From positions 5,894-69,893 of the forward strand of contig JAUWOP010000002.1 of NCBI GenBank assembly GCA_030612045.1: a stretch of 64,000 nt of DNA. The letters are read 5' to 3'. Source of the stretch: Chloroflexota bacterium. Lineage in GTDB: Bacteria > Chloroflexota > Dehalococcoidia > UBA2247 > JAUWOP01. Made by a program: the position numbers and the translations under genes. The stretch's first letter is position 1; each line of letters starts with the position of its first letter. The notes beneath the pieces are model-generated. The model saw only the letters and a program-made list of their open reading frames with translations. It was not told where the DNA came from and did not search any database. Below are positions 4,417 through 63,614 of this stretch, piece by piece.

Positions 4417-4564
4417 GGAATACTAGAGACAACAAGTGGAAACCGCCGATGGCTCAATTAATGCATAGCGATAACGAGGGTTGCATCTGATTTCCCATTG
4501 GAGTACCTGTTAACAGACTTTGGTTTGCTGTAACCTTCATAGTACCCGAGAAAGAAGCAAACAC

Positions 4565-4770
4565 ACATGGACGGCTGCCCACCAACGAACCATGAAAATA
4601 AGTTGTCATTGCGAGTCTTTTCCCCTTGTCATTGCGAGCAAAGCGAAGCAATCCCATCGCCACTCCCACCGCCGAGGTTGCTTCGGCACTGCGTGCCTCG
4701 CAATGACACACTATGGGGACGCTCCTCGCAATGGCAGATGTGGGGATGAGGCTATTTTCGGAATAAAGAG
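4565..4770. repeat. composite hairpin repeat array: linker module (ggctgcccaccaacgaaccatgaaaata) followed by nested GTCATTGCGAG...CTCGCAATGAC inverted-repeat unit
   Basis: Nearly identical modules recur at 20941-21030, 24817-24960, 30908-31015, 56327-56395 (inverted), 56902-57060 and 61327-61455. Each has an internal GAAGCAATC(T/C)C / GAG(A/G)TTGCTTC hairpin and ends AATGACA(N)ATGGGG. Confidence 0.85.
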
Positions 4771-4839: not shown

Positions 4840-6543
4840 ATGTTGGATGAGTTTAGTCTTATACTGGATATAGCTATTGTTCTGGGTGCAGCTTTAGCAG
4901 GAGGGTTGGTCGCCCGCTTCTTGAAGCAGCCTACCATAATAGGTTACCTCCTGGCTGGAGTTATCATTGGTCCTCATGTGTTTGGCTTAATTCATGAATC
5001 GGATGAAATAAGGGTACTGGCTACTATTGCGATTGTGCTACTCCTCTTCACTCTTGGGATAAAGTTCTCGCTACGGGAAATGATTCGGGTGAGGAAGGTA
5101 GCTATTGGGGGTGGTATATTTCAACTTCTGGCTACTACAGGGTTGGGAATAGGTATTGCCACCCTCCTTGGATGGTCGCTTCATGAGGCAGTAATCTTCG
5201 GCTTTCTAATTGCCCTCAGCAGCACGATGGTAGTAATCGGTATGCTTACCGAGCGTGGGGAGTTGGAATCAGTACATGGTCGGGTGATGATAGGAATCCT
5301 CCTGATGCAGGATATTGCTGCCGCTTTCATGATGTTCATCCTTCCAGCACTGGGAGACTCAGGTGGGAACCTGCCCCCCGTACTGGGGATGGCAGTCCTT
5401 AAAGCTGTGCTATTCCTAGCTTTAGTCTTGCTCCTGGGAGCATGGGTAGTACCTCGATTCATAAGGCGTGTAGCGGGTCAAGGACCCAGGGACAGGGAGC
5501 TGTTCATACTTTCCAGTGCTGTGTTGTGCTTCGGAGGTGCCTTTGGCGCCTACTATTTTGGTTTGTCGGCGGCTTTGGGTGCTTTTGCCATCGGGCTTCT
5601 CATTAGTGAATCTGACTTCGCCCATCAGGTGCTTGGCGATATGATACCCCTGCGTGATATCTTCTCCGCCCTTTTCTTTGTGTCAGTAGGAATGCTTGTT
5701 GACATATCTTTTATGGCGGGAAGTATCGGCACTGTCATTGTAGTAGCTCTAGTGGTTATTCTGGGTAAGTTTCTTATCTGCTCTGCTACCGCCAGGCTCT
5801 TCGGTTATAGGGGTAAGACAGTACCCCTGGTGGGGGCGGGAATGATACAAGTTGGGGAATTCAGCTTCGTGTTAGCAGAGCTTGGGCTAGAGACAGGGGG
5901 AATTTCAGAGCACCTATATTCGCTGATTCTTGCCAGTGGTATGATTTCCATTATCCTCACCCCATTTGTCTACACACTGACAACCAACCTCAGCACCAGA
6001 TTGATTCGAGTGAGAGGGCTGAGGTCTCTCACAGGGGTTGGTGCACCACAATTAGTTGAGGAGGTAGCGAAGATTTCTGACCATGTAGTTATTTGTGGTC
6101 ATGGTCGTGTAGGTGGTAGTGTAGCCCGGATGCTGGGGCAGTTAGAGATTCCATATTTGGTCATTGACCTCGACCCGGCGATTATCTCCAATCTCCGGGA
6201 TGAGGGGATTCCCTGCGTCTACGGGGATGCTGGTAACCGGGAGGTGCTTTCCAAGGTGGGACTTAAGGATGCAGCCCTTTTGCTGATTGCTATGCCTGAC
6301 CCTATGGCAGCGAGGCTTACTCTCGACCACGCTCTCCATATTAACCCTCATCTGGATGTTGTGGCACGTGTTCATAGCGATTTCGAGCTTGATTTCTTGC
6401 GGGGAAGGGGAGCTTCTGTGCTGGTCCAGCCGGAGTTTGAGGCAAGCATAGAGATGGTGCGGCATGTCTTGTGCCGATTGGGATTGCCCGAGGACAAGGT
6501 GAAGGAGTTTGTCAACAACTGGAGAGCAACATGCCCTGTATAA
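4840..6543 (+). CDS. Kef-type (CPA2) cation:proton antiporter with C-terminal RCK/TrkA-N domain
   Basis: N-terminal Na+/H+ exchanger TM domain, then a VVICGHGRVGGSVARML Rossmann (TrkA-N) motif. Confidence 0.8.
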   Translation: MLDEFSLILDIAIVLGAALAGGLVARFLKQPTIIGYLLAGVIIGPHVFGLIHESDEIRVLATIAIVLLLFTLGIKFSLREMIRVRKVAIGGGIFQLLATTGLGIGIATLLGWSLHEAVIFGFLIALSSTMVVIGMLTERGELESVHGRVMIGILLMQDIAAAFMMFILPALGDSGGNLPPVLGMAVLKAVLFLALVLLLGAWVVPRFIRRVAGQGPRDRELFILSSAVLCFGGAFGAYYFGLSAALGAFAIGLLISESDFAHQVLGDMIPLRDIFSALFFVSVGMLVDISFMAGSIGTVIVVALVVILGKFLICSATARLFGYRGKTVPLVGAGMIQVGEFSFVLAELGLETGGISEHLYSLILASGMISIILTPFVYTLTTNLSTRLIRVRGLRSLTGVGAPQLVEEVAKISDHVVICGHGRVGGSVARMLGQLEIPYLVIDLDPAIISNLRDEGIPCVYGDAGNREVLSKVGLKDAALLLIAMPDPMAARLTLDHALHINPHLDVVARVHSDFELDFLRGRGASVLVQPEFEASIEMVRHVLCRLGLPEDKVKEFVNNWRATCPV

Positions 6544-6548
6544 AAATG

Positions 6549-6840
6549 TAACTACTCAGACAGGATAACAGGATACACATCAGGTAGAGATAGAGACCCT
6601 CCCCCCTCTATCTCTGTTGTTTGGACTGTTAGACAGTTAAACAAGGGGTTGCAACCTCTTGTTCATTTCCTCAGTGTCCTCGGTGAACTCTGTGGCTTAC
6701 CATAGTCGTTGAATGGTTGGGCTGCTGGTTTTGGTTGTCGTTAATCGTTAAAGGTCTTGACGAGTTGCGCAACCCTTTATCCTTCACCGTTCCCTTTCCT
6801 CTGTGAACTCTGTGGCTATCAATTACTGGCTGAGTAGTTA
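6549..6840. repeat. intergenic repeat cluster (family D): GTAACTACTCAG...CTGAGTAGTTAC inverted termini, with internal direct repeats CTCGGTGAACTCTGTGGCT and CTCTGTGAACTCTGTGGCT
   Basis: The GGTAACTACTCAGCC...GATAGCCACAGAG module recurs at 20855-20900, 27805-27835, 52612-52650 and 13990-14003. Confidence 0.7.
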
Positions 6841-8292
6841 CCTTATCTCTTTATGATACCTCTCCAAACCATCTAGCAAAACCCCCAGATTATAGTGGGC
6901 TTCGGCATAGTTCGGATTTACTCTCAATGCCTCCCTGAACTCAGCCTTTGCCTCTTCATACCTCTCCAAATCCTTCCCTAGTAAAATCCCCAGATTATTA
7001 TGGGCTTCGGCATAGTTCGGATTTACCCTCAGTGCCTCTCCGTATTCAGCCTCTGCCTCTTCACATCTCTCCAAATTACTTAACAAAATCCCCAGATTAT
7101 TATGGGTTTCGGCAAGGTCTGGATTTACCCTCAATGCCTCCCTGAACTCAGTCTCTGCCTCTTCACATCTCTCTAAATCCCCTAGCAAATTCCCCAGATT
7201 ACTATGGGCTTCGGCATAGTTCGGATTTATCCTCAATGCTTCCCTGTATTCAGCCTCTGCCTCTTCATGCTTCTCTAAATTCCCTAACAAAACCCCCAGA
7301 TTATTATGGGCTTCGGCAAGGTCTGGATTTATCCTCAATGCTTCCCTGTATTTAGCCTCTGCCTCTTCATGCCTCCCTAGATTCCCTAGCAAATTCCCCA
7401 GATTATTATGGGCTTCGGCATCGTTCGGATTTACTCTCAATGTTTCCCTGAACTCAGCCTCTGCCTCTTCATACCTCTCCAAATCCTTCCCTAGTAAAAT
7501 CCCCAGACTATTATGGGCTTCGGCATAGTTCGGATTTAGCCTCAGTGCCTCTCTGTATTCAGCCTCTGCCTCTTTAAAATCCTCGGCGTAGTAGCAGGCA
7601 TTGCCGCGGTAGAAATGACCCTCTGTGGTGAGATCCTTGATTTTCTTCAGCACCTCTGCCATCACAGCAGCTTCTCTCCTGGCGGCATCCGAAATCCCCT
7701 CCACCTTCCCTACAGTGCTGAGGGAAACAGGGGACTCCACGGCTACCTTTGCCGCCTCCCTAGCTTCTTCAGGCTTGATGCTGATTATGCGGGCTATCTC
7801 ATCTTCTATCTTTTCCATAGCACTCTGGAAGCTTATATTTTTCGTTAGCTCACTTATAATCATTTCCTTATCGGCATCACCGTGGTATGAAAGGATGGTC
7901 GTGCCATTCTTATCAGAAAGGGCTTCAGTAAGGTCTATATGGGCGTTTTTATTTCCAAGGGGGACAACGAACTTCTCCAGTCCGTCCAGCAGTCCCCATT
8001 CATAGGAGATGTTATGTCTCAGCTCATTATAGATGACGATACCGAAGTAGCACCTCCTCATTATCTCCCTGAGTCCCTCATCCGTTTTCACTCCTGCCGA
8101 TATCTCTCTCCCCGTGTGAACCTCAAACCCCCTCCCCTTAAGATAATCTATCAAGATGCGCTCTATCCGGCTTGGATTATCTCCCGATGTAAATGCGAGG
8201 GCTAAGAATACGGACTTGGGGTTAACCCTCTGCTCAGTTTCCATATTAATTCTCCGTCCTCCGTAGCTGCTAATAAAAGGAGAGTTGGTCAA
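6838..8292 (-). CDS. TIR-like (flavodoxin-fold) N-terminal domain protein with nine C-terminal TPR repeats
   Basis: The N-terminus SVFLALAFTSGDN...IERILIDYLKGRGFEVHT...CYFGIVIYNELRHNISYEWGLLDG resembles TIR/DUF1863-type domains. The C-terminus has nine 34-aa repeats of the form NPNYAEAHNNLGxLLGxLERxEEAEAEYREALR. The repeats are near-identical at the DNA level. Confidence 0.55.
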   Translation of the reverse strand: MTNSPFISSYGGRRINMETEQRVNPKSVFLALAFTSGDNPSRIERILIDYLKGRGFEVHTGREISAGVKTDEGLREIMRRCYFGIVIYNELRHNISYEWGLLDGLEKFVVPLGNKNAHIDLTEALSDKNGTTILSYHGDADKEMIISELTKNISFQSAMEKIEDEIARIISIKPEEAREAAKVAVESPVSLSTVGKVEGISDAARREAAVMAEVLKKIKDLTTEGHFYRGNACYYAEDFKEAEAEYREALRLNPNYAEAHNSLGILLGKDLERYEEAEAEFRETLRVNPNDAEAHNNLGNLLGNLGRHEEAEAKYREALRINPDLAEAHNNLGVLLGNLEKHEEAEAEYREALRINPNYAEAHSNLGNLLGDLERCEEAETEFREALRVNPDLAETHNNLGILLSNLERCEEAEAEYGEALRVNPNYAEAHNNLGILLGKDLERYEEAKAEFREALRVNPNYAEAHYNLGVLLDGLERYHKEIR

Positions 8293-11939: not shown

Positions 11940-12605
11940 ATGATGAAGAATAGGCTAAGTGAAGAGACAATCGCTATGCGAGTAGCTAAGGAGATTGAAG
12001 ACGGTTTTTTTATCAATCTAGGGATTGGTATCCCTACTCTGGTCTCCGATTTCGTTCCTGAAGATAGGATGGTGATGTTCCAGTCGGAGAATGGTATTCT
12101 AGGTATGGGGGGACTCTTCCCTGCAGGAGAGGGAGACTTCGACCTGGCTAATATGTCCGGGCAGTCCGTAAAGCTCGTGCCTGGCGCCTCTTTCTTCGAT
12201 TGTGTCTACTCCTTCGACATGATTAGAGGCAAACATCTCGATGCGGCTGTATTGGGGGGATTTCAGGTATCAGAGAAGGGTGACCTGTCGAACTGGATGC
12301 TGAACGAGAGAAAAGTGGGTGGGGTAGGAGGGGCAATGGATGTAGCAGTAGGTGCCAAGAGGCTTTTCATCGCCATGACGCATACTGATAAGAACGGGAA
12401 TGCCAAAATAGTCAAGGAATGCACCCAGCCTGTTACCGCCCAAAGGTGTGTAAACACAATATTTACCGACTTGGCGGTTATTGAGGTAACTGAGGAAGGG
12501 CTATTACTGAAAGAAATAGCCCCCGGTTGGCAGGTAGAGGAGGTTCAAGCACTCACTGAACCCAGGCTTCTAGTAAGTAGCGACCTTAGAGAGATTACCC
12601 TCTAG
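11940..12605 (+). CDS. 3-oxoacid CoA-transferase subunit B
   Basis: ENGxLGxG motif (SENGILGMGG) carrying the catalytic Glu. Confidence 0.8.
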   Translation: MMKNRLSEETIAMRVAKEIEDGFFINLGIGIPTLVSDFVPEDRMVMFQSENGILGMGGLFPAGEGDFDLANMSGQSVKLVPGASFFDCVYSFDMIRGKHLDAAVLGGFQVSEKGDLSNWMLNERKVGGVGGAMDVAVGAKRLFIAMTHTDKNGNAKIVKECTQPVTAQRCVNTIFTDLAVIEVTEEGLLLKEIAPGWQVEEVQALTEPRLLVSSDLREITL

Positions 12606-12750
12606 TGTAGTGTAATTGTAATAACTATACAGTTTGTCATTCCGTGCTTGACACGGAATCCATCCCTGGACCTTCTGGATTCCCGCTTTCGCGGGAATGA
12701 CATGGGGCGCTTCATTGTCGAGTCATTTAGGAGACACTACACTAGAAGTA
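12601..12750. repeat. MITE-like element (family B): perfect 11-bp terminal inverted repeats CTAGTGTAGTG/CACTACACTAG flank a two-hairpin core TGTCATTCCgtg..cacGGAATCC...GATTCCCGCtttcGCGGGAATGACATGGGG
   Basis: A near-identical copy including the flanks lies at 43030-43206. Core variants lie at 57145-57215, 61201-61267 and 25847-25886 (inside a CDS). Confidence 0.8.
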
Positions 12751-12843: not shown

Positions 12844-13257
12844 ATGATTTGCCCGGTATGTAAGGAAGATATGATTGTGGTAGAGCACGAGAGAATCGAG
12901 CTTGACTACTGTGTGAAGTGCTTCGGTGTTTGGTTTGATGCCGGAGAGCTAGAACTCCTGCTTGAATCCCTGGGACTAGAGGAGTCAGGATTTCGGATGG
13001 AGGAGATAATGGCTCTGCCTGAGAAGAGAGCAACTGAGGAGGTGCGCAAGTGCCCCATCTGCAGGAAGAAGATGCGGAAGGTTACCATCGGTCATACCCC
13101 TGCGGTGCTCATCGATGCCTGCCCTCAGGGAGATGGACTGTGGTTCGACGGTGGTGAGGTAAATCAGGTTATAAGGCAGCTTGTGGACACTTCCCCTGGT
13201 GATACACAGGGGCAGGTTGTCACCTTTCTGGGAGAGGTTTTTAAGGCTAGAGAATAG
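12844..13257 (+). CDS. tandem zinc-ribbon (zf-TFIIB-like) protein
   Basis: Two CPxC...CxxC modules (MICPVCKED...CVKCFGVWFD; CPICRKKM...CPQGDGLWFD). Confidence 0.5.
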   Translation: MICPVCKEDMIVVEHERIELDYCVKCFGVWFDAGELELLLESLGLEESGFRMEEIMALPEKRATEEVRKCPICRKKMRKVTIGHTPAVLIDACPQGDGLWFDGGEVNQVIRQLVDTSPGDTQGQVVTFLGEVFKARE

Positions 13258-20910: not shown

Positions 20911-21045
20911 GTTTATAGAGTTCATTGGGTTCATTACGAGCCTTTCCCCTTTGTCATTGCGAGCGAAGCGAAGCAATCTCAGTGGGGGGAGGGGCGATGA
21001 GATTGCTTCGTCGCTAGCGCTCCTCGCAACGACATGGGGATGATG
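20855..21045. repeat. repeat cluster: family D, family C and one GTCATTGCGAG hairpin unit
   Basis: See the family descriptions above. 20941-21030 is a single A-type hairpin. Confidence 0.8.
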
Positions 21046-42932: not shown

Positions 42933-43029
42933 CGTGTGTCATGAAATAAGTGTAGCAAGTCCGTATCTGTCGAGATTGCTGTAAATTGAGATAGTTATTT
43001 CGTGTCAGGCACTTAGTGGCATATTTGAT

Positions 43030-43206
43030 TTTTGGTAAGTAGTGTAGTGTAATCGTAATAACTATACAGTTTGTCATTCCGTGCTTGACACGGAATCCAT
43101 CCCCTAGACCTTCTGGATTCCTGCTGGAGTTTACCCCGTACTTGATACGGGGCAGGAATGACATGGGGTACCCTATTGTCAGGTCATTTAAGAGACACTG
43201 CACTAG
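43030..43206. repeat. MITE-like family-B element (second full copy with TIRs TAGTGTAGTG / CACTGCACTAG)
   Basis: Identical flanks and core to 12601-12750, plus an extra internal hairpin CCCCGTActtgaTACGGGG. Confidence 0.8.
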
Positions 43207-52611: not shown

Positions 52612-52760
52612 TATTGGTAACTACTCAGCCACAGAGGACACCGAGGTCATATAAAGGTTCTTTTAATGTGACTACTCAGGTTATTAGGTTCATGGTTCAC
52701 GGTTACTGGGTTCAACTCTGAACCTTGAACTCGGGAACTGTGAACCTGTGTAGTTACGCA
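52612..52760. repeat. intergenic family-D/C-related repeat cluster (GTAACTACTCAGCCACAGAGGACACCGAGG...)
   Basis: Sequence similarity to 6660-6840 and 20855-20900. Confidence 0.6.
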
Positions 52761-54231: not shown

Positions 54232-54792
54232 ATGACTATGGAGGTGTGGGTGAGGGAGGATGGGAAGGCGAGGACTGACTACTGGAAATGGACAACGCCT
54301 GGTGAGCCAACAGAGACAAAAATTTTCATCAGCGATGGTGAATTTGACTGGATGTATCATCCCTCTGTTGAGAACACAGCTTATAAGTGGTCCTTAGGGT
54401 CCGGGATGAACCCAGGCATAGTTTGCGAGGCATGGTTTACCGGGTCTTACTATGGTGACTATATGACAGAGGGTGAGATACTGGCAGCAATGCAGGCTAC
54501 ATGTGCCGCTAACCCCAAATGCGCCAGTGTGACCTTGGATCATGAGACAATTTCTGAAGAGTATTGCACCAAGTTCACCTGGAACTATACCAATGGCGAC
54601 ACATACAGCTTCTGGATTCCACAAGCCCACGGCTGGCTCGCGAAGTGGCAGTATTACGAGGCATCCGAAGGTGTTACCACAACGATGCAGTTTACAGATA
54701 TAGACCTGGACCCAACAATACCAGATGACATCTTCGATGTAGACAAAGTTTTCGCCCCTGGAACCGAAATAATAGATATGACCGTGGGATAG
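54232..54792 (+). CDS. hypothetical secreted-domain protein, probable continuation of the upstream lipoprotein
   Basis: In frame with 54049-54195. No RBS of its own is evident. Confidence 0.45.
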   Translation: MTMEVWVREDGKARTDYWKWTTPGEPTETKIFISDGEFDWMYHPSVENTAYKWSLGSGMNPGIVCEAWFTGSYYGDYMTEGEILAAMQATCAANPKCASVTLDHETISEEYCTKFTWNYTNGDTYSFWIPQAHGWLAKWQYYEASEGVTTTMQFTDIDLDPTIPDDIFDVDKVFAPGTEIIDMTVG

Positions 54793-56935: not shown

Positions 56936-57240
56936 AAATAGGCTGTCATTGCGAGCGAAGCGAAGCAATCTCGGTGGGGCGGCGATGAGATTGCTTCGTC
57001 GCTACGCTCCTCGCAATGACACATTATGGGGGCGTGCCTCGCAATGACAAATGTGGGGTCAGTCTATTTTCGGAATAAACACTCATGGGCGGCTGCCCAC
57101 CAACGAACCATGAAAATAGTGCTTCCTTGCAACGACTTTGCCTGTCATTCCTGCGGAAGCAGGAATCCATGTGGGGTGGGTGTAGATTCCCGCCTGCGCG
57201 GGAATGACATAGTCTATTTTCGAAGCAAAGAGTGTGAATC
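56902..57240. repeat. 340-bp repeat array: linker, nested A-type hairpin unit, linker (CTATTTTCGGAATAAACACTCATGGGCGGCTGCCCACCAACGAACCATGAAAATAG), B-type two-hairpin unit, linker
   Basis: Same module order (in a different arrangement) as 61195-61455. Confidence 0.85.
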
Positions 57241-57243
57241 AGG

Positions 57244-59136
57244 GTGACCTTTGAAGAGATTCAGCACCATGCCATGGCGGAGTGGGAAGCCCTCCATGCA
57301 GGTGAGATACCGTGTGTCCGTATTGGTACGGCTACTTGTGGTAGAGCAGCCGGTGCACTATCAATAGCTCACATCTTTGCCACAGAGATTGAAAGGCGGG
57401 GTATTGAGGCTGCTCTCCTGCAGGTAGGCTGTTTAGGGCTATGTTATGCTGAGCCTATCGTGGTGATAAGCAAGCCAGGGATGCCCCTAATTTGTTACTC
57501 TAATGTAACCCCGGAGATTGCCCTACGGTTGATAACAGACTACCTTGAAGATGATGACCCCTGCCTCGACCTGGCAATGGGGACACTGGAGGGTGGTGGT
57601 GAGGAGCTCCTTTATATCCCTGAGCTCACCCGGTTTGAGTATGAACAGCACTTTCTCCTGAAACGGTGTGGATATATAGACCCACTAAACATCAATCACT
57701 ATATTGCTACCGGCGGTTACCATTGTTTGAATAAGATGTTACAAACTCCTCCTCATGTAATAATTGATGAGATAGAGCGTTCCGGACTCAGGGGGAGGGG
57801 CGGGGCAGGATTCCCTACTGGTCTGAAGTGGCGGCTGTGTCATGATGCCGTTAACCTTCTCAGATATATAGTATGTAATGCTGACGAAGGAGACCCCGGT
57901 GCCTTTGTGGACCGCGTCATCCTGGAGAGTGACCCTCATGCCATCCTGGAAGGGCTACTTATTGGCGCCCATGCAGTAGGTGCCTCCAGGGGTTATGTTT
58001 ATTGCCGCTCAGAGTATCCTCTGGCTCTGCAGTGCCTTCACCATGCTGTTACCCAGATGAAAGATTATGGACTTCTGGGCAACCACATTCTGGGTTCAGA
58101 TTTCAATTTTCACCTTGAGATAGTTGAGGGCGCAGGAGCATTCGTGTGTGGTGAGGAGACGGCGCTTCTGGCTTCTATCGAAGGTAGACGTGGTATGCCA
58201 CGCCCTCGTCCTCCCTATCCTGTCGAGTCTGGCTTATGGAACAAGCCTACACTGGTTAATAATGTAAAAACCTTTGCTTGTATTCCTCTCATACTCGACT
58301 ATGGTGCTGACTGGTTTACCAGTATTGGGACAGAAAGAAGCAAAGGGACACAGGTATTCGCCTTAACAGGTAAGGTGAGACACACCGGATTGGCAGAGGT
58401 GCCAATGGGCACGACTCTCCACCAACTGATATATGACATTGGTGGCGGGATACAAGGAGACAAGACATTCAAGGCAGTCCAGATAGGGGGACCCTCAGGG
58501 GGATGCCTTCCTGCAGGGTTATTGCATACCCCAATAGATTTTGATTCCCTTGTTAATGTAGGTGCTATGATGGGTTCGGGTGGGATAGTAGCGATGGATG
58601 AAACCAGCTGTATGGTAGATATTGCCCGTTACCTTCTCGATTTTATTCAGAAGGAATCCTGTGGAAAGTGCTCTCTATGCCGCCTGGGGACCAGACAAAT
58701 GCTTCAGATATTAGAGGATATTGTGAGTGGGAAGGGTAAGGAAGGAGATATTGAGCTACTTACCAATCTTGCCGAGGATATTCAGGTGGGTTCTCTCTGT
58801 GGGCTGGGTAAGACAGCACCTAACACTGTTCTTACTACCCTGCGTTACTTCCGAGAGGAATATGAAGCCCATATTCGAGAGAAATGCTGCCCAGCACTAG
58901 TATGCAAAGACCTTATCGCCTACTATATCCTGCCTGAGAGGTGTAGTGGCGCCTGCGACCATTGTGTAGTTACTTGCTCTACCAAGGCAATCAGTAGCAA
59001 TGAAGTAGGAGTAAAGGTTATTGACCAGAGCAAGTGTGTCAAGTGCGGGACATGCCTTGAAGTCTGTCCTCTAGAGTACAGTGCAGTAATTAAGGTATCA
59101 CCTCCTGACTCTATACCAGAAGCGGGACAGAGATAG
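57244..59136 (+). CDS. NuoF-like NAD(P)H-binding flavoprotein subunit with N-terminal thioredoxin-like [2Fe-2S] domain and C-terminal 2x[4Fe-4S] ferredoxin domain (HndC/HoxF/FdhB type)
   Basis: GRGGAGFPTGLKW FMN site, a C-x2-C-x2-C-x3-C soluble-ligand cluster, and C-terminal CxxCxxCxxxCP x2. Confidence 0.85.
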   Translation: MTFEEIQHHAMAEWEALHAGEIPCVRIGTATCGRAAGALSIAHIFATEIERRGIEAALLQVGCLGLCYAEPIVVISKPGMPLICYSNVTPEIALRLITDYLEDDDPCLDLAMGTLEGGGEELLYIPELTRFEYEQHFLLKRCGYIDPLNINHYIATGGYHCLNKMLQTPPHVIIDEIERSGLRGRGGAGFPTGLKWRLCHDAVNLLRYIVCNADEGDPGAFVDRVILESDPHAILEGLLIGAHAVGASRGYVYCRSEYPLALQCLHHAVTQMKDYGLLGNHILGSDFNFHLEIVEGAGAFVCGEETALLASIEGRRGMPRPRPPYPVESGLWNKPTLVNNVKTFACIPLILDYGADWFTSIGTERSKGTQVFALTGKVRHTGLAEVPMGTTLHQLIYDIGGGIQGDKTFKAVQIGGPSGGCLPAGLLHTPIDFDSLVNVGAMMGSGGIVAMDETSCMVDIARYLLDFIQKESCGKCSLCRLGTRQMLQILEDIVSGKGKEGDIELLTNLAEDIQVGSLCGLGKTAPNTVLTTLRYFREEYEAHIREKCCPALVCKDLIAYYILPERCSGACDHCVVTCSTKAISSNEVGVKVIDQSKCVKCGTCLEVCPLEYSAVIKVSPPDSIPEAGQR

Positions 59137-59206
59137 AAAATCGGGACACAGGGAAGGAGAATCATGAGTTTCTATCCTAGCCTCTACTTGAAGCAGGAGA
59201 CAATAG

Positions 59207-59968
59207 GTGGAAGCTGAACTTGTTACCCTGACCATTGATGATATCAAGGTTAAAGCTAAGAAGGGAATCAAGGTCCTGGATGCTGCCCTGGGAGCCGGTA
59301 TCTACATCCCTCACCTCTGTTACCTGCCTGAGGCTGAGGTTCCTCTTGCCTCCTGCCGTCTATGTTATGTGGAAATTGAGGGAAGGGGGATGGTTACTGC
59401 CTGTACCGAGCTAGTAGCTGAGGGGATAGTGGTGCATACTCACAATCCCCGGATTGATAGGCTGCGTCATACCACGATGAGGCTTATCCTTGCTAACCAC
59501 CCCATTGATTGTAGCTCCTGCCCTAGAAACAGAGATTGTGAACTTCAGAGGATTGCTGCCTACCTTCATATAAAGCTGGGAAATCCTTCTGGGTCCCCTT
59601 CCCTAAAGGGGGATTTAGGGGGATTTAGGGAAATGCCTCTCCGTGACCTTCCTATAGATGACAGCCATTCCCTGTTTATCTACGACCCCAATAAGTGTGT
59701 TCTCTGTGGTAAGTGTGTGATGATTTGTAATGAGCGTATGGGAGTAGGCGTTCTTAACTTTATCTTCCGTGGCTATAATACCAGGGTTGGCACCTTCAGG
59801 GAGATACCGTGGGGAGAAGCAGGGTGTATTTCTTGTGGAGCATGTGTAGCTGCCTGTCCTGTAGGCGCCCTGGTTCCTAAGAATATCAAGGTACTCTCCT
59901 TTACAACATCACCAGGTTGTTACGATGCACCACTTCATCACCATATTCATAGCCCAGGAGATCGGTAA
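59207..59968 (+). CDS. NuoG N-terminal-like iron-sulfur protein ([2Fe-2S] + [4Fe-4S] domains only, 253 aa)
   Basis: CRLCYVE...TAC 2Fe-2S motif, HPIDCSSCPRNRDCELQ, CVLCGKCVMIC and CISCGACVAACP. No downstream catalytic domain. The 3' end overlaps convergent proB by ~68 nt. Confidence 0.7.
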   Translation: MEAELVTLTIDDIKVKAKKGIKVLDAALGAGIYIPHLCYLPEAEVPLASCRLCYVEIEGRGMVTACTELVAEGIVVHTHNPRIDRLRHTTMRLILANHPIDCSSCPRNRDCELQRIAAYLHIKLGNPSGSPSLKGDLGGFREMPLRDLPIDDSHSLFIYDPNKCVLCGKCVMICNERMGVGVLNFIFRGYNTRVGTFREIPWGEAGCISCGACVAACPVGALVPKNIKVLSFTTSPGCYDAPLHHHIHSPGDR

Positions 59969-61123
59969 TCCTATTGGAGTGAGTCCCTTTAATTATATCA
60001 ATATCAGCCGAGCTATAGTTAGATATACCATGAGCAATAGAGTTCCCTTCAGGGTCAACAATATTGACTATATCCCCTCGCTGAAAATTCCCTCTTACTG
60101 CCTTTATGCCAGCGGGTAATAAACTGCCCCTCTCTTTGAGTGCCTGGGCAGCTCCAGTATCAATAAGGATTTCTCCTTTTTCGTAACGCTTCCGTTTATA
60201 TCCCAACCCACTTAGCATCCACCGCTTGCGACTCTCCAGTTGTGTAGTGATGGGAAGGAAACGGGTTCCTATCTGTTCTCCCTTTATGAGGCGAGGAATA
60301 ATTTCAGGGGTTCGCCCATCAGCAATAACTGTCATAACTCCTGAACTGGTAGCTAATCTGGCTGCTTCTACCTTGGTGACCATGCCACCAATGCCACGCT
60401 GTGAGAGGGTATCCCCGGCTAGCTGCTCAATGTGGCTGTCTATTCTCTCCACTACGGGTATGAGTTGAACTTCAGAATCAAGGTGAGGGTCAGCAGTGTA
60501 GAGTCCACCCACATCACTGAGGAGTACTAGTAAGTCAGCATCTACCAGATTTGCTACCATGGCTGAAAGGTTGTCATTATCACCAAATTTAGCTTCCCTA
60601 ATCTCATCGATAGCCACAACATCATTCTCATTTACTATAGGTAATACTCTGAGTTCCAATAGTCCCAGGAGGGTGTTACGCGCATTAAGGTAGCCAGCAC
60701 GGTCAGACATATCATTTTTGGTAAGCAGTGCCTGGGCTATAGTAATATTATGCCAGGAGAAGAGTTGCTCATAGGCATGCATCAGGCAGTTCTGCCCCAC
60801 TGCAGCCAGAACCTGTTTTTTCGTAGTGCTTGCACCTTTTCGTAGTGCTTGCACCTTTTTACGGTACTCACACTGGCAGCCTCATGCTCTTGAATGAGAC
60901 CAAGCTTGTGTCTACCTGCAGCAATTGCCCCTGAGGAAACGAGGACTATTTCTGCCCCCTGGCGATGCATTCGGGCTATTTGACCTACAAGGCTAGACAT
61001 TATCCCCAACTCGAGGTAATCGCCACCCCCAGTTATCAGATTAGCTCCTAGCTTTACCACCGCACGGTGATGATAAATATTTTCTATTTCGCCCATTCCA
61101 GTATTATATATCCTGAGTAACAA
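59901..61123 (-). pseudogene. proB: glutamate 5-kinase interrupted by a tandem 2x19-bp insertion (frameshift)
   Basis: ORF 60782-61123 encodes the ProB N-terminus (AVVKLGANLITGG...VLVSSGAIAAGRHKLGL). ORF 59901-60854 encodes the rest (KKQVLAAVGQ...PUA domain). The two are joined at a tandem duplication of cgtagtgcttgcacctttt (60822-60859). Confidence 0.75.
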
Positions 61124-61194: not shown

Positions 61195-61455
61195 ACCCAT
61201 TGTCATTCCTGCGGAAGCAGGAATCCAGGTAAGGCAGGTGTAGATTCCCGCGTAGGCGGGAATGACATATTCTATTTTCGAAGCAAACACTCATGGGCGG
61301 CTGCCCACCAACGAACCATGAAAATAGCCTGTCATTGCGAGCCTTTCCCCTCTGTTATTGCGAGCGAAGCGAAGCAATCTCGGTGGGGTAGAAGAGATTG
61401 CTTCGTCGCCATGCTCCTCGCAAAGACACATCGAGAATCTATTTTCGGAATAAAT
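61195..61455. repeat. repeat array: B-type two-hairpin unit, linker, nested A-type unit, linker
   Basis: 61201-61267 matches 57145-57215. 61327-61425 matches 56941-57050. Confidence 0.85.
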
Positions 61456-62654: not shown

Positions 62655-63614
62655 ATGTCAGGAAGCACTATTCGGAAACGGAGAGTAAAAAGGGTTCAGG
62701 TTATTACTTCGAAACTCAACCCTCACAGGATTCCGAGGATTCCCTTTCAGTTACTGTCTCAGAAGGTATTACCCCTTCTGTTGGCAGGTTTGTTGGTGAT
62801 GACCTTTGCTGGAGTAGGCCTGATAATTCCCTCACCAGCTTTGGCACAAGCTGACCAGAATGAGCTGACCGCAAGCTACATGCCTGCTGATATTGACTTT
62901 TACCTTAGTCTCAAGTCCGAATTGAGTGGCGACCAGCTTACCAATTTCTGGAGGGTGGCAAACAACTGGTGGCAGGATGCCGGTGTGCAGTCAAAATGGC
63001 AAGAGGCAATTGATGAAGTTAAGAGCGAAAGTGATACTAATATAGATATTCCGCAAGATGTCCTCCCCTGGCTGGGACCTGAGCTTGCCGCAGGAATGCG
63101 TAATATCTATACTGAGGAGCCAGATATTATTGTCTTTATCGGCACCAAAGACAAGAGCGCCTCAGATAGCTTCTTCTTCGATAAGCTCGCTCCTGAGATA
63201 GCAGAAGAGGGGACTACTCCTCCCTCAGCACCCACAGGCTCCTATGCCGGGATAGAAACCCTCTACAACTTTCTCGATACCACCACATTCTGGGCTTTCA
63301 CTAATAGCTACATTATATTATCCAGTAACCAGCAGCTTCTTGAGGAGTGTTTAGACTTGCTCTCTGGCTCCTCCTCAGATTCCCTGGCTAACACATCAAA
63401 CTTCCAGGCAGCCCAGAGTAACCTTCCTGCTGAGCGAGCAGGAATGCTCTATGACAACATAGAGAATATCTGGATTGACATTCTCTCCATTATTCCCCCA
63501 GAGCAGCAGGCTATATTTAATGTCATGGGTTCCTACTACCCCCCCCTATTTTACTGCCTCAGTTCAATTTACCGAAGATGGGATAACAGTTACAGGATAT
63601 TGTCCCTTTCCTGA
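62655..63614 (+). CDS. signal-anchored secreted protein, 5' part; the frame is broken at a C8 homopolymer (63539-63546)
   Basis: N-terminal TM/signal (VLPLLLAGLLVMTFAGVGLIIPSPALA). The +1 frame continues as an open ORF to the window end. Confidence 0.5.
   Translation: MSGSTIRKRRVKRVQVITSKLNPHRIPRIPFQLLSQKVLPLLLAGLLVMTFAGVGLIIPSPALAQADQNELTASYMPADIDFYLSLKSELSGDQLTNFWRVANNWWQDAGVQSKWQEAIDEVKSESDTNIDIPQDVLPWLGPELAAGMRNIYTEEPDIIVFIGTKDKSASDSFFFDKLAPEIAEEGTTPPSAPTGSYAGIETLYNFLDTTTFWAFTNSYIILSSNQQLLEECLDLLSGSSSDSLANTSNFQAAQSNLPAERAGMLYDNIENIWIDILSIIPPEQQAIFNVMGSYYPPLFYCLSSIYRRWDNSYRILSLS

What the first reader, a model, noticed from the sequence alone, without database searches (positions are those of the whole stretch)
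60815..60865. proB disrupted by two tandem copies of a 19-bp sequence inserted in a poly-A/T tract
The sequence ...ccgtAAAAAG[gtgcaagcactacgaaaag][gtgcaagcactacgaaaa]aacag... (gene strand) splits proB into two frames. Removing 38 bp and leaving an A7 tract restores ...EAASVSTVKKQVLAAVGQ..., which aligns with the conserved ProB LG-x10-KQ-LAAVGQ region. This is either genuine pseudogenisation (a proline-auxotrophy implication), an unusual mini-insertion or slippage event, or an assembly artefact.
Basis: seen in the sequence. Interest (0 to 1): 0.5.

Follow-up and report, generated by a model that had tools for sequence, protein, structure and literature searches.

The report
proB repeat array one unit short
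The proline-synthesis gene proB is broken here only because a perfect 19-base tandem repeat has two copies, while other assemblies of the same organism have three copies and an intact gene, so this is a repeat miscount or slippage variant and not a dead gene.

Summary
Window 60818-60859 holds two perfect tandem copies of a 19-bp unit (gene strand GGTGCAAGCACTACGAAAA) inside proB on the minus strand, and they split the gene into a 104-aa and a C-terminal ORF. Zero and three copies are both in frame. The only intact allele in public data has three copies: a 404-aa ProB on three ENA SPAdes contigs. The two fetched contigs have 15x and 32x coverage and are otherwise about 99.98% identical to the window. 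A k=31 Logan contig identical to the window ends exactly where an array of three or more copies would create a graph branch. No 0-, 1-, 4- or 5-copy product exists in the 15-billion-protein collection. The unit is absent from 185,579 species genomes and from JGI metagenomes. The 57-bp array is read once in each frame and adds 19 residues to a loop that AlphaFold predicts as disordered. So the lineage has a working proB, and this contig is one unit short. The cause is either assembly collapse (possible at k<=43) or a real slipped-strand contraction. Reads are needed to decide. Interest is low.

The parts
59901..61096 (-). proB (glutamate 5-kinase), AA_kinase plus PUA domains. In this window it is frameshifted at the repeat array.
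   Evidence: TIGR01027 at 422.5 bits on the repaired protein. E. coli G5K 2j5t matches at E=1.4e-88. Relatives in Dehalococcoidia and Chloroflexota are at most 70% identical.
60818..60859 (-). Perfect 19-bp tandem array: 2 full units (60818-36 and 60837-55) plus 4 nt of periodic overhang, 42 nt of periodic sequence in all. Sister assemblies have 3 units and 61 nt.
   Evidence: L001 and L002 carry 3.0 units at 5242-5298 with identical flanks. The extra 19 nt is the only indel between the window and L002 over 9.1 kb.
60782..61096 (-). N-terminal ORF of the 2-copy allele (104 aa, P0122). It runs out of frame after the array and stops at 60782-60784.
   Evidence: This exact product is recorded only from the 73,902-bp NCBI contig.
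59901..60854 (-). C-terminal reading frame of proB. The mechanical ORF starts at a GTG inside the array. The source called a 293-aa product from MHAYEQ (P0001).
60856..60860 (-). A5 tract on the gene strand, at the 5' side of the array. Four of its A's belong to the periodic sequence and give microhomology for slippage.
   Evidence: Read directly.
60815..60821 (-). A6 tract followed by C on the gene strand, at the 3' side of the array. It forms the heptamer A_AAA_AAC in the zero frame of the 2-copy allele. A -1 slip here would restore the proB frame, but this is untested and unsupported.
   Evidence: Read. No stable downstream structure was found (z = -0.54).
60183..60200 (-). A second, in-frame, lineage-specific 18-bp (6-aa, YKRKRY) insertion at the AA_kinase-PUA linker. 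It is present in both alleles.
   Evidence: Alignment A1. pLDDT is below 50 at residues 303-310 of the 404-aa model. Its DNA resemblance to the repeat core is no better than chance.

Best explanation
The locus is a perfect tandem array of a 19-bp unit inside proB. Its normal, functional state in this population is three copies: 57 bp, in frame, with each copy read in a different frame (KRCKHYE / KVQALR / KGASTTK). This adds 19 residues to a disordered surface loop between the SGAIAAGR motif and the KQVLAAVGQ helix. The window carries one unit fewer, and that alone frameshifts the gene. I think the missing unit is most likely an under-count made during assembly or contig joining. At k<=43 every k-mer of the 2-copy path exists in 3-copy reads, and a maximal-overlap join of contig ends inside the array gives exactly two copies. 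On this reading the organism has an intact proB. What is shown: the 3-copy allele is real, intact and the only intact one on record, and the window differs from it by exactly one unit. What is inferred: that the loss happened in silico and not in vivo.
For: Zero and three copies are in frame; one, two, four and five are not. P0121, 404 aa, is exactly the predicted 3-copy protein and lies on 3 ENA contigs. The two fetched are SPAdes contigs from ERZ4220937 (15x) and ERZ4219663 (32x). Their DNA has 3.0 perfect units with the same flanks. Over window 43040-64000 they differ from the window only by the 19-bp unit, a handful of SNPs and one homopolymer indel. Logan contig L005 (SRR14865926, the same contig in 2 samples) is 100% identical to window 57180-60847 and ends 30 nt into the periodic sequence. 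A de Bruijn simulation at k=31 reproduces that end point and tail for three or more copies or a mixture, while a pure 2-copy array gives an unbroken unitig. All 2-copy k-mers are contained in the 3-copy sequence up to k=43. The 3-copy sequence has private k-mers at every k tested (35-65), so it cannot be invented from 2-copy reads. The 2-copy ORF products are recorded only from the one NCBI contig. In the AlphaFold model of the 404-aa protein (pTM 0.79), residues 70-94 have pLDDT below 50, between well-modelled helices.
Against: I had no reads, so the source sample of the NCBI contig and its assembler are unknown. Mainstream assemblers finish at k>=55, where a 61-nt periodic stretch is resolved and a 2-copy path would need real 2-copy reads. 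The window is not the same consensus as either ENA contig. It has SNPs at 52654 and 53671 against both, and a structural difference left of 43040, so a real allele difference between samples is plausible. The same population also shows a C7/C8 frameshift polymorphism in independent assemblies.
Confidence: 0.5

Rival explanations
1. The 2-copy allele is real. Slipped-strand mispairing between perfect adjacent 19-bp units deleted one unit in the (sub)population sampled by this MAG, giving a proB-null, proline-dependent variant that can revert by regaining a unit. In its strongest form, the array acts as an on/off (phase-variation-like) switch.
For: The repeat is perfect, adjacent and flanked by A-tract microhomology, and the unit length is not a multiple of 3. 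Copy number differs between near-identical assemblies, 2 versus 3. The window is a distinct consensus with private SNPs. The population carries another indel polymorphism at a simple repeat (C8 versus C7 at 63539-63546), seen in independent assemblies. At k>=44 a 2-copy contig needs real 2-copy reads. Reversible tandem duplications inside an ORF are a known switch in pneumococcal cap3A (PMC11163986).
Against: The 2-copy products occur in one assembly only, and no Logan or ENA contig carries them. A Logan contig with exactly the window haplotype shows three or more copies. proB is a housekeeping biosynthetic gene, not the usual class for contingency loci. Only two states have been seen, with no 1-, 4- or 5-copy alleles.
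Confidence: 0.4
2. One reading: the ancestral gene had an A7 tract, 38 bp of extra sequence (two copies of a 19-mer) was inserted, and proB is now a pseudogene with a proline-auxotrophy implication for the lineage.
For: Deleting 38 bp gives an in-frame 385-aa ProB that scores as TIGR01027.
Against: The zero-copy protein is not in the collection. The only intact allele has three copies. Relatives are 4 aa shorter in this loop than even the zero-copy version and have a different sequence there (KGIPF), so they do not support A7 as the ancestral state. There is no other disabling mutation, since both halves match the intact allele exactly. The 19-mer is not a mobile element: it is unique in the window and has 0 exact hits in the genome contigs and metagenome contigs collections.
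Confidence: 0.05
3. The 2-copy allele is expressed through a programmed -1 ribosomal frameshift at A_AAA_AAC immediately after the array, so the split is only apparent.
For: In the 2-copy allele the heptamer lies in the zero frame, and a -1 slip gives ...ALRKN-QVLAAVGQ... in the proB frame (sequence). As far as I recall, A_AAA_AAC is the IS1 shift site.
Against: There is no downstream stimulatory structure (z = -0.54). The 3-copy allele needs no shift. The motif is just the A-tract that flanks the repeat. I found no conservation in relatives.
Confidence: 0.03

Closest known systems
Slipped-strand mispairing at short tandem repeats in coding DNA (the classic case is the lacI CTGG x3 hotspot, gain or loss of one unit; from my own knowledge)
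   Same: Three perfect adjacent units, with the observed change being exactly one unit. The frame changes because the unit length is not a multiple of 3.
   Different: The unit here is 19 bp instead of 1-8 bp. The wild-type state is itself a triplication that is in frame only because there are three copies. Whether the change happened in vivo is not shown.
Reversible tandem duplications within an ORF as a switch: Streptococcus pneumoniae cap3A (Waite et al. 2001, as summarised in PMC11163986)
   Same: Perfect tandem duplication of tens of bases inside an ORF, with the off state caused by frameshift and reversion by loss of a copy.
   Different: In cap3A, ON means no duplication. Here the ON state has three copies, and the zero-copy state has never been seen. 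The gene is biosynthetic, not a surface structure. No switching has been measured.
Tandem-repeat collapse in short-read de Bruijn or overlap assemblies
   Same: At k between 24 and 43 the array forms a cycle. The 2-copy path uses only k-mers present in 3-copy reads. A k=31 assembly breaks exactly at the array.
   Different: The periodic stretch (61 nt) is shorter than the final k of most current pipelines, so collapse is possible but not expected by default.
Bacterial glutamate 5-kinase with a PUA domain (E. coli ProB, PDB 2j5t)
   Same: The same two-domain architecture, alignable over residues 7-62 and 67-365 of the E. coli enzyme.
   Different: There are 23 extra residues between E. coli positions 62 and 67, of which 19 come from the repeat array. 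There are 6 extra residues at the domain linker.

Membership tests
Glutamate 5-kinase ProB (TIGR01027; PF00696 + PF01472) | Full-length match above the curated cut-off, covering the AA_kinase and PUA domains | tested here: met
   422.5 bits against a cut-off of 186, covering profile positions 2-362 of 363 on the repaired protein. Hits carry PF00696 and PF01472. E. coli G5K matches at E=1.4e-88.
Glutamate 5-kinase ProB (TIGR01027; PF00696 + PF01472) | A single uninterrupted ORF | tested here: not met
   In the window the gene is split into 104 aa plus a C-terminal ORF. The feature is met in sister assemblies, 404 aa.
Lineage-level pseudogene | The disruption is shared by other genomes of the same population | tested here: not met
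   Three ENA contigs carry an intact 404-aa gene. A Logan contig indicates three or more copies.
Lineage-level pseudogene | Additional degenerative changes beyond the first lesion | tested here: not met
   Apart from the one missing unit, the window's proB matches the intact allele with no mismatch.
Mobile mini-insertion (MITE, IS footprint or other dispersed repeat) | Further copies elsewhere in the genome or in other genomes | tested here: not met
   The unit is unique in the window at up to 3 mismatches. AAAA-core-AAAA has 0 exact hits in the genome contigs and metagenome contigs collections.
Slipped-strand contingency (phase-variable) locus | A perfect tandem repeat inside an ORF with a unit length that is not a multiple of 3 | tested here: met
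   19-bp unit, 100% identity. The frame alternates with copy number.
Slipped-strand contingency (phase-variable) locus | Copy number varies among otherwise near-identical genomes | tested here: inconclusive
   2 versus 3 copies at about 99.98% flank identity. The 2-copy state comes from a single assembly and could be a collapse.
Slipped-strand contingency (phase-variable) locus | Reversible, high-frequency switching with a phenotypic consequence | not testable with these tools
   This needs reads or cultures.
Programmed -1 ribosomal frameshift | A slippery X_XXY_YYZ heptamer in the zero frame at the frame junction | tested here: met
   A_AAA_AAC at 60815-60821 on the minus strand. A -1 slip restores the proB frame (sequence).
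Programmed -1 ribosomal frameshift | A downstream stimulatory structure, and conservation of the arrangement | tested here: not met
   The downstream 83 nt fold no better than shuffles (z = -0.54). The 3-copy allele is in frame without any shift.
Assembly collapse of a tandem repeat | The shorter path can be built entirely from k-mers of the longer allele | tested here: met
   True for k<=43. The array breaks a k=31 assembly.
Assembly collapse of a tandem repeat | Reads of the source sample support only the longer allele | not testable with these tools
   I had no access to reads, and the source run of the NCBI contig is unknown. The accession search in papers found nothing.

The most novel reading that the evidence does not exclude
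The 19-bp array is a real contingency switch in a free-living Dehalococcoidia-like bacterium. Three copies give proB ON and two or four give OFF, so subpopulations toggle between making proline and scavenging it. The 2-copy state might leak through a -1 slip at A_AAA_AAC. That would be phase variation of a core amino-acid biosynthesis gene in an uncultured environmental lineage.
Probability: 0.08. Interest if true: 0.6.

Novelty: new member of a known kind. Interest (0 to 1): 0.2.

Why it matters
The main value is as a caution. A metabolic reconstruction from this MAG would score proline biosynthesis as broken and call the organism an auxotroph. Other assemblies of the same population show an intact gene. 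The locus is also a clear example of a conserved enzyme tolerating a 19-residue loop insertion made by triplicating a 19-bp unit, with the three copies read in all three frames. Its frame depends on the copy number being a multiple of three, so the site is prone both to slippage in vivo and to miscounting in assembly.

Tried and rejected
1. Mobile or foreign insert. The unit is unique in the window and absent from the genome contigs and metagenome contigs collections. Scans with both flanks and a variable gap also found nothing. Both collections are now exhausted.
2. A related insertion elsewhere in proB. The 6-aa YKRKRY insert at 60183-60200 shares AAGCNNTACGAAAA with the unit. A Smith-Waterman scan of the whole window did not place that site among the 14 best-scoring windows for either query, and three unrelated loci (about 41150, 43560, 39170) scored 24-29. 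I treat the resemblance as chance.
3. The unit as an old duplicate of the upstream AASVSTVK codons. The local alignment is no better than any of 5000 shuffles.
4. Programmed frameshift. The heptamer is present but there is no downstream structure.
5. A hairpin or cruciform in the array DNA. The fold is unremarkable (z = -1.0).
6. An Rfam RNA overlapping the site. Only four tRNAs were found, all elsewhere.
7. proA or proC in the window. None of 10 size-matched ORFs is either one. Smaller or larger ORFs were not scanned.
8. Identifying the samples from the literature. The run and analysis accessions appear in no held paper.
9. Looking up the NCBI contig's own genes by position. They are not in the index.

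Full report
**1. Observation**

The gene lies on the minus strand. Around the flagged site the gene strand reads ccgt-AAAAA-GGTGCAAGCACTACG-AAAA-GGTGCAAGCACTACG-AAAAAA-cagg.
- Tandem Repeats Finder reports a period-19 array at 60818-60859, 2.2 copies, 100% identity, score 84.
- The 19-mer is found nowhere else in the 64-kb window, even with 3 mismatches. Chance expectation is 0.01 matches.
- The array splits the gene into a 104-aa N-terminal ORF (60782-61096 from the ATG) and a C-terminal ORF in a different frame (59901-60854).
- With the array removed, the protein is an unambiguous glutamate 5-kinase: TIGR01027 at 422.5 bits against a cut-off of 186, with AA_kinase and PUA domains.

**2. Frame arithmetic**

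I rebuilt the gene with 0 to 6 copies. One, two, four and five copies frameshift. Three copies give a 404-aa in-frame protein in which the three units are read in the three different frames...STV-KRCKHYE-KVQALR-KGASTTK-KQVLAAVGQ...

**3. What related sequences show**

- A search of 5.8 billion protein clusters found the window's own C-terminal fragment (P0001, 293 aa, NCBI, one 73,902-bp contig). All other hits were at most 70% identical, some labelled Dehalococcoidia or Chloroflexota MAGs.
- The cluster of P0001 holds a second member, P0121. It is 404 aa, comes from ENA and lies on three contigs. Its sequence is exactly the predicted 3-copy protein.
- The two contigs fetched are SPAdes contigs from different ENA analyses: ERZ4220937 NODE_463 (31.3 kb, 14.8x) and ERZ4219663 NODE_363 (33.3 kb, 32.4x). 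Their DNA contains 3.0 perfect units between the same flanks as in the window.
- Across window 43040-64000 these contigs differ from the window only by that 19-bp unit, SNPs at 57860, 53671, 52654 and 49506 or 54193, and a 1-bp homopolymer indel at 63546 in one of them. They are the same population at about 99.98% identity.
- Exact look-ups of the 0-, 1-, 4- and 5-copy products and of alternative start sites found nothing in 15 billion sequences. The 2-copy fragments occur only on the NCBI contig.

**4. Independent support from a k=31 assembly**

- Logan contig L005 (SRR14865926, the identical contig in two samples) is 100% identical to window 57180-60847. It stops 30 nt into the periodic sequence.
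- In a de Bruijn simulation at k=31, a pure 2-copy array gives an unbroken unitig. An array of three or more copies, or a 2+3 mixture, ends the unitig at exactly that position with exactly that tail. That Logan uses k=31 is from my own knowledge.
- So those reads contain three or more copies, on the same haplotype as the window.

**5. Which allele can be an artefact**

- For every k up to 43, all k-mers of the 2-copy sequence are present in the 3-copy sequence. A short-cut through the repeat cycle, or a maximal-overlap join of contig ends inside the array, can therefore yield two copies from 3-copy reads.
- From k=44 upward, a 2-copy path needs real 2-copy reads.
- The 3-copy sequence has private k-mers at every k tested (35-65), so it cannot be fabricated from 2-copy reads.
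- The 3-copy allele is therefore real. The 2-copy allele may or may not be.
- Against collapse: common pipelines finish at k>=55, and the window is a slightly different consensus from both ENA contigs. The same population also shows a C7/C8 frameshift polymorphism in independent assemblies.
- For collapse: the 2-copy state is seen in one assembly only, and the window haplotype shows three or more copies in Logan.
- I put collapse at about 0.5 and a real slipped-strand contraction at about 0.4.

**6. Is the 3-copy protein plausible as an enzyme?**

- Relatives read KLGLTKExKGIPF-KQVLASVGQ at this site. This lineage reads KLGLIQEHEAASVSTVK-[19 aa]-KQVLAAVGQ. Even without the array its loop is 4 residues longer and has a different sequence.
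- Against E. coli G5K (2j5t), residues 7-62 and 67-365 align on either side of the insert.
- AlphaFold2 with 120 homologues gives pTM 0.79. Residues 70-94 have pLDDT below 50, between a helix at 57-64 and the long helix at 94-120. The insert is therefore modelled as a disordered loop on an otherwise confident fold.
- A second lineage-specific 6-aa insertion (YKRKRY, window 60183-60200) sits at the domain linker and also has low confidence.
- That the loop is functionally tolerated is an inference. No catalytic motif is interrupted. SGAIAAG, NENDVV and GDNDNLSA are intact.

**7. Origin of the unit**

- It is not a dispersed or mobile sequence. It is unique in the window. It has no exact hit in one genome per 185,579 species or in 241 million JGI metagenome records.
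- Resemblances to the second insertion and to the upstream codons do not exceed chance.
- HMMER aligns the last copy's reading, ASTTKKQ, with E. coli's ATIASKQ. This hints that one unit may be native sequence that was duplicated, but that is not established.
- Any stepwise route to three copies passes through frameshifted intermediates, which remains unexplained.

**8. Alternatives examined**

- In the 2-copy allele, the A-tract after the array forms A_AAA_AAC in the zero frame, and a -1 slip would restore the proB frame. There is no downstream structure (z = -0.54), and the 3-copy allele needs no shift. I give this about 0.03.
- The array DNA has no notable hairpin.
- Rfam finds only tRNAs, all elsewhere.
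- No proA or proC was found among ten size-matched ORFs in the window.

**9. Comparison with known systems**

- Mechanistically this matches slipped-strand gain or loss of one unit at a short tandem repeat, as at the lacI CTGG x3 hotspot (own knowledge).
- It also resembles reversible intragenic tandem duplications such as pneumococcal cap3A (PMC11163986).
- It meets the structural criteria of a contingency locus, but switching is untested and the gene class is atypical.
- It fails the tests for a lineage pseudogene and for a mobile insertion.

**10. Verdict**

- The sequence feature is real in the window.
- The pseudogene and 38-bp-insertion readings are not supported.
- The lineage carries an intact proB with a 3 x 19-bp in-frame array, and this contig is one unit short.
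- This is a new instance of a known kind of event.
- Interest is low (0.2). It would rise only if reads show real 2/3-copy switching.

Noticed in passing
window 63539-63546 (C8 run), within the DUF3352 gene 62655-63614 and onward: The window and ENA ERZ4219663 have C8, which splits a DUF3352 gene into 319 + 456 aa. ENA ERZ4220937 has C7 and an intact 813-aa gene, and the 813-aa protein is also recorded from Logan. This is a homopolymer frameshift polymorphism seen in independent assemblies.
   Followed up: partly
window about 42955-43040; L011 and L012 from position 12981 onward: Both ENA contigs match the window down to 43040. They then continue into different sequence with several unannotated ORFs and a PemK-like toxin. 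The junction lies at an 87-bp repeat that also occurs at window 12602-12687 (95% identity). This is either an island or indel difference between strains, or a misjoin at a repeat in one assembly.
   Followed up: partly
window 4554-4653, 20952-21034, 56943-57024, 61352-61431; inverted repeat 61201-61267: A family of roughly 80-100-bp intergenic repeats with GTCATTCC...GGAATGAC-type inverted arms lies just upstream of proB and elsewhere. Several Logan contigs start within one at 57180.
   Followed up: no
window 54193, upstream of ORF 54232-54792: A single SNP between assemblies changes a hypothetical gene from 186 (+47) aa in the window and ERZ4219663 to 246 aa in ERZ4220937.
   Followed up: no
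window 60183-60200 (minus strand): An in-frame 6-aa insertion (YKRKRY) at the ProB AA_kinase-PUA linker. It is absent from all 26 aligned relatives and is modelled with low confidence.
   Followed up: yes
window 59901-59968: The 3' end of proB (minus strand) overlaps by 68 bp the 3' end of a convergent Fer2_4/NADH-G-like Fe-S protein gene (59207-59968, plus strand).
   Followed up: no
window 60711-60713: Logan contigs from three runs (SRR12623519, SRR12623520 and SRR12623521) all end here, about 105 nt before the array. This suggests a strain-level variant or branch inside proB in those samples.
   Followed up: no
window 6856-7574: Seven tandem copies of a 102-bp (34-aa) unit at 83% identity lie inside ORF 6838-8292 (minus strand). 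It looks like a TPR-like repeat protein.
   Followed up: no
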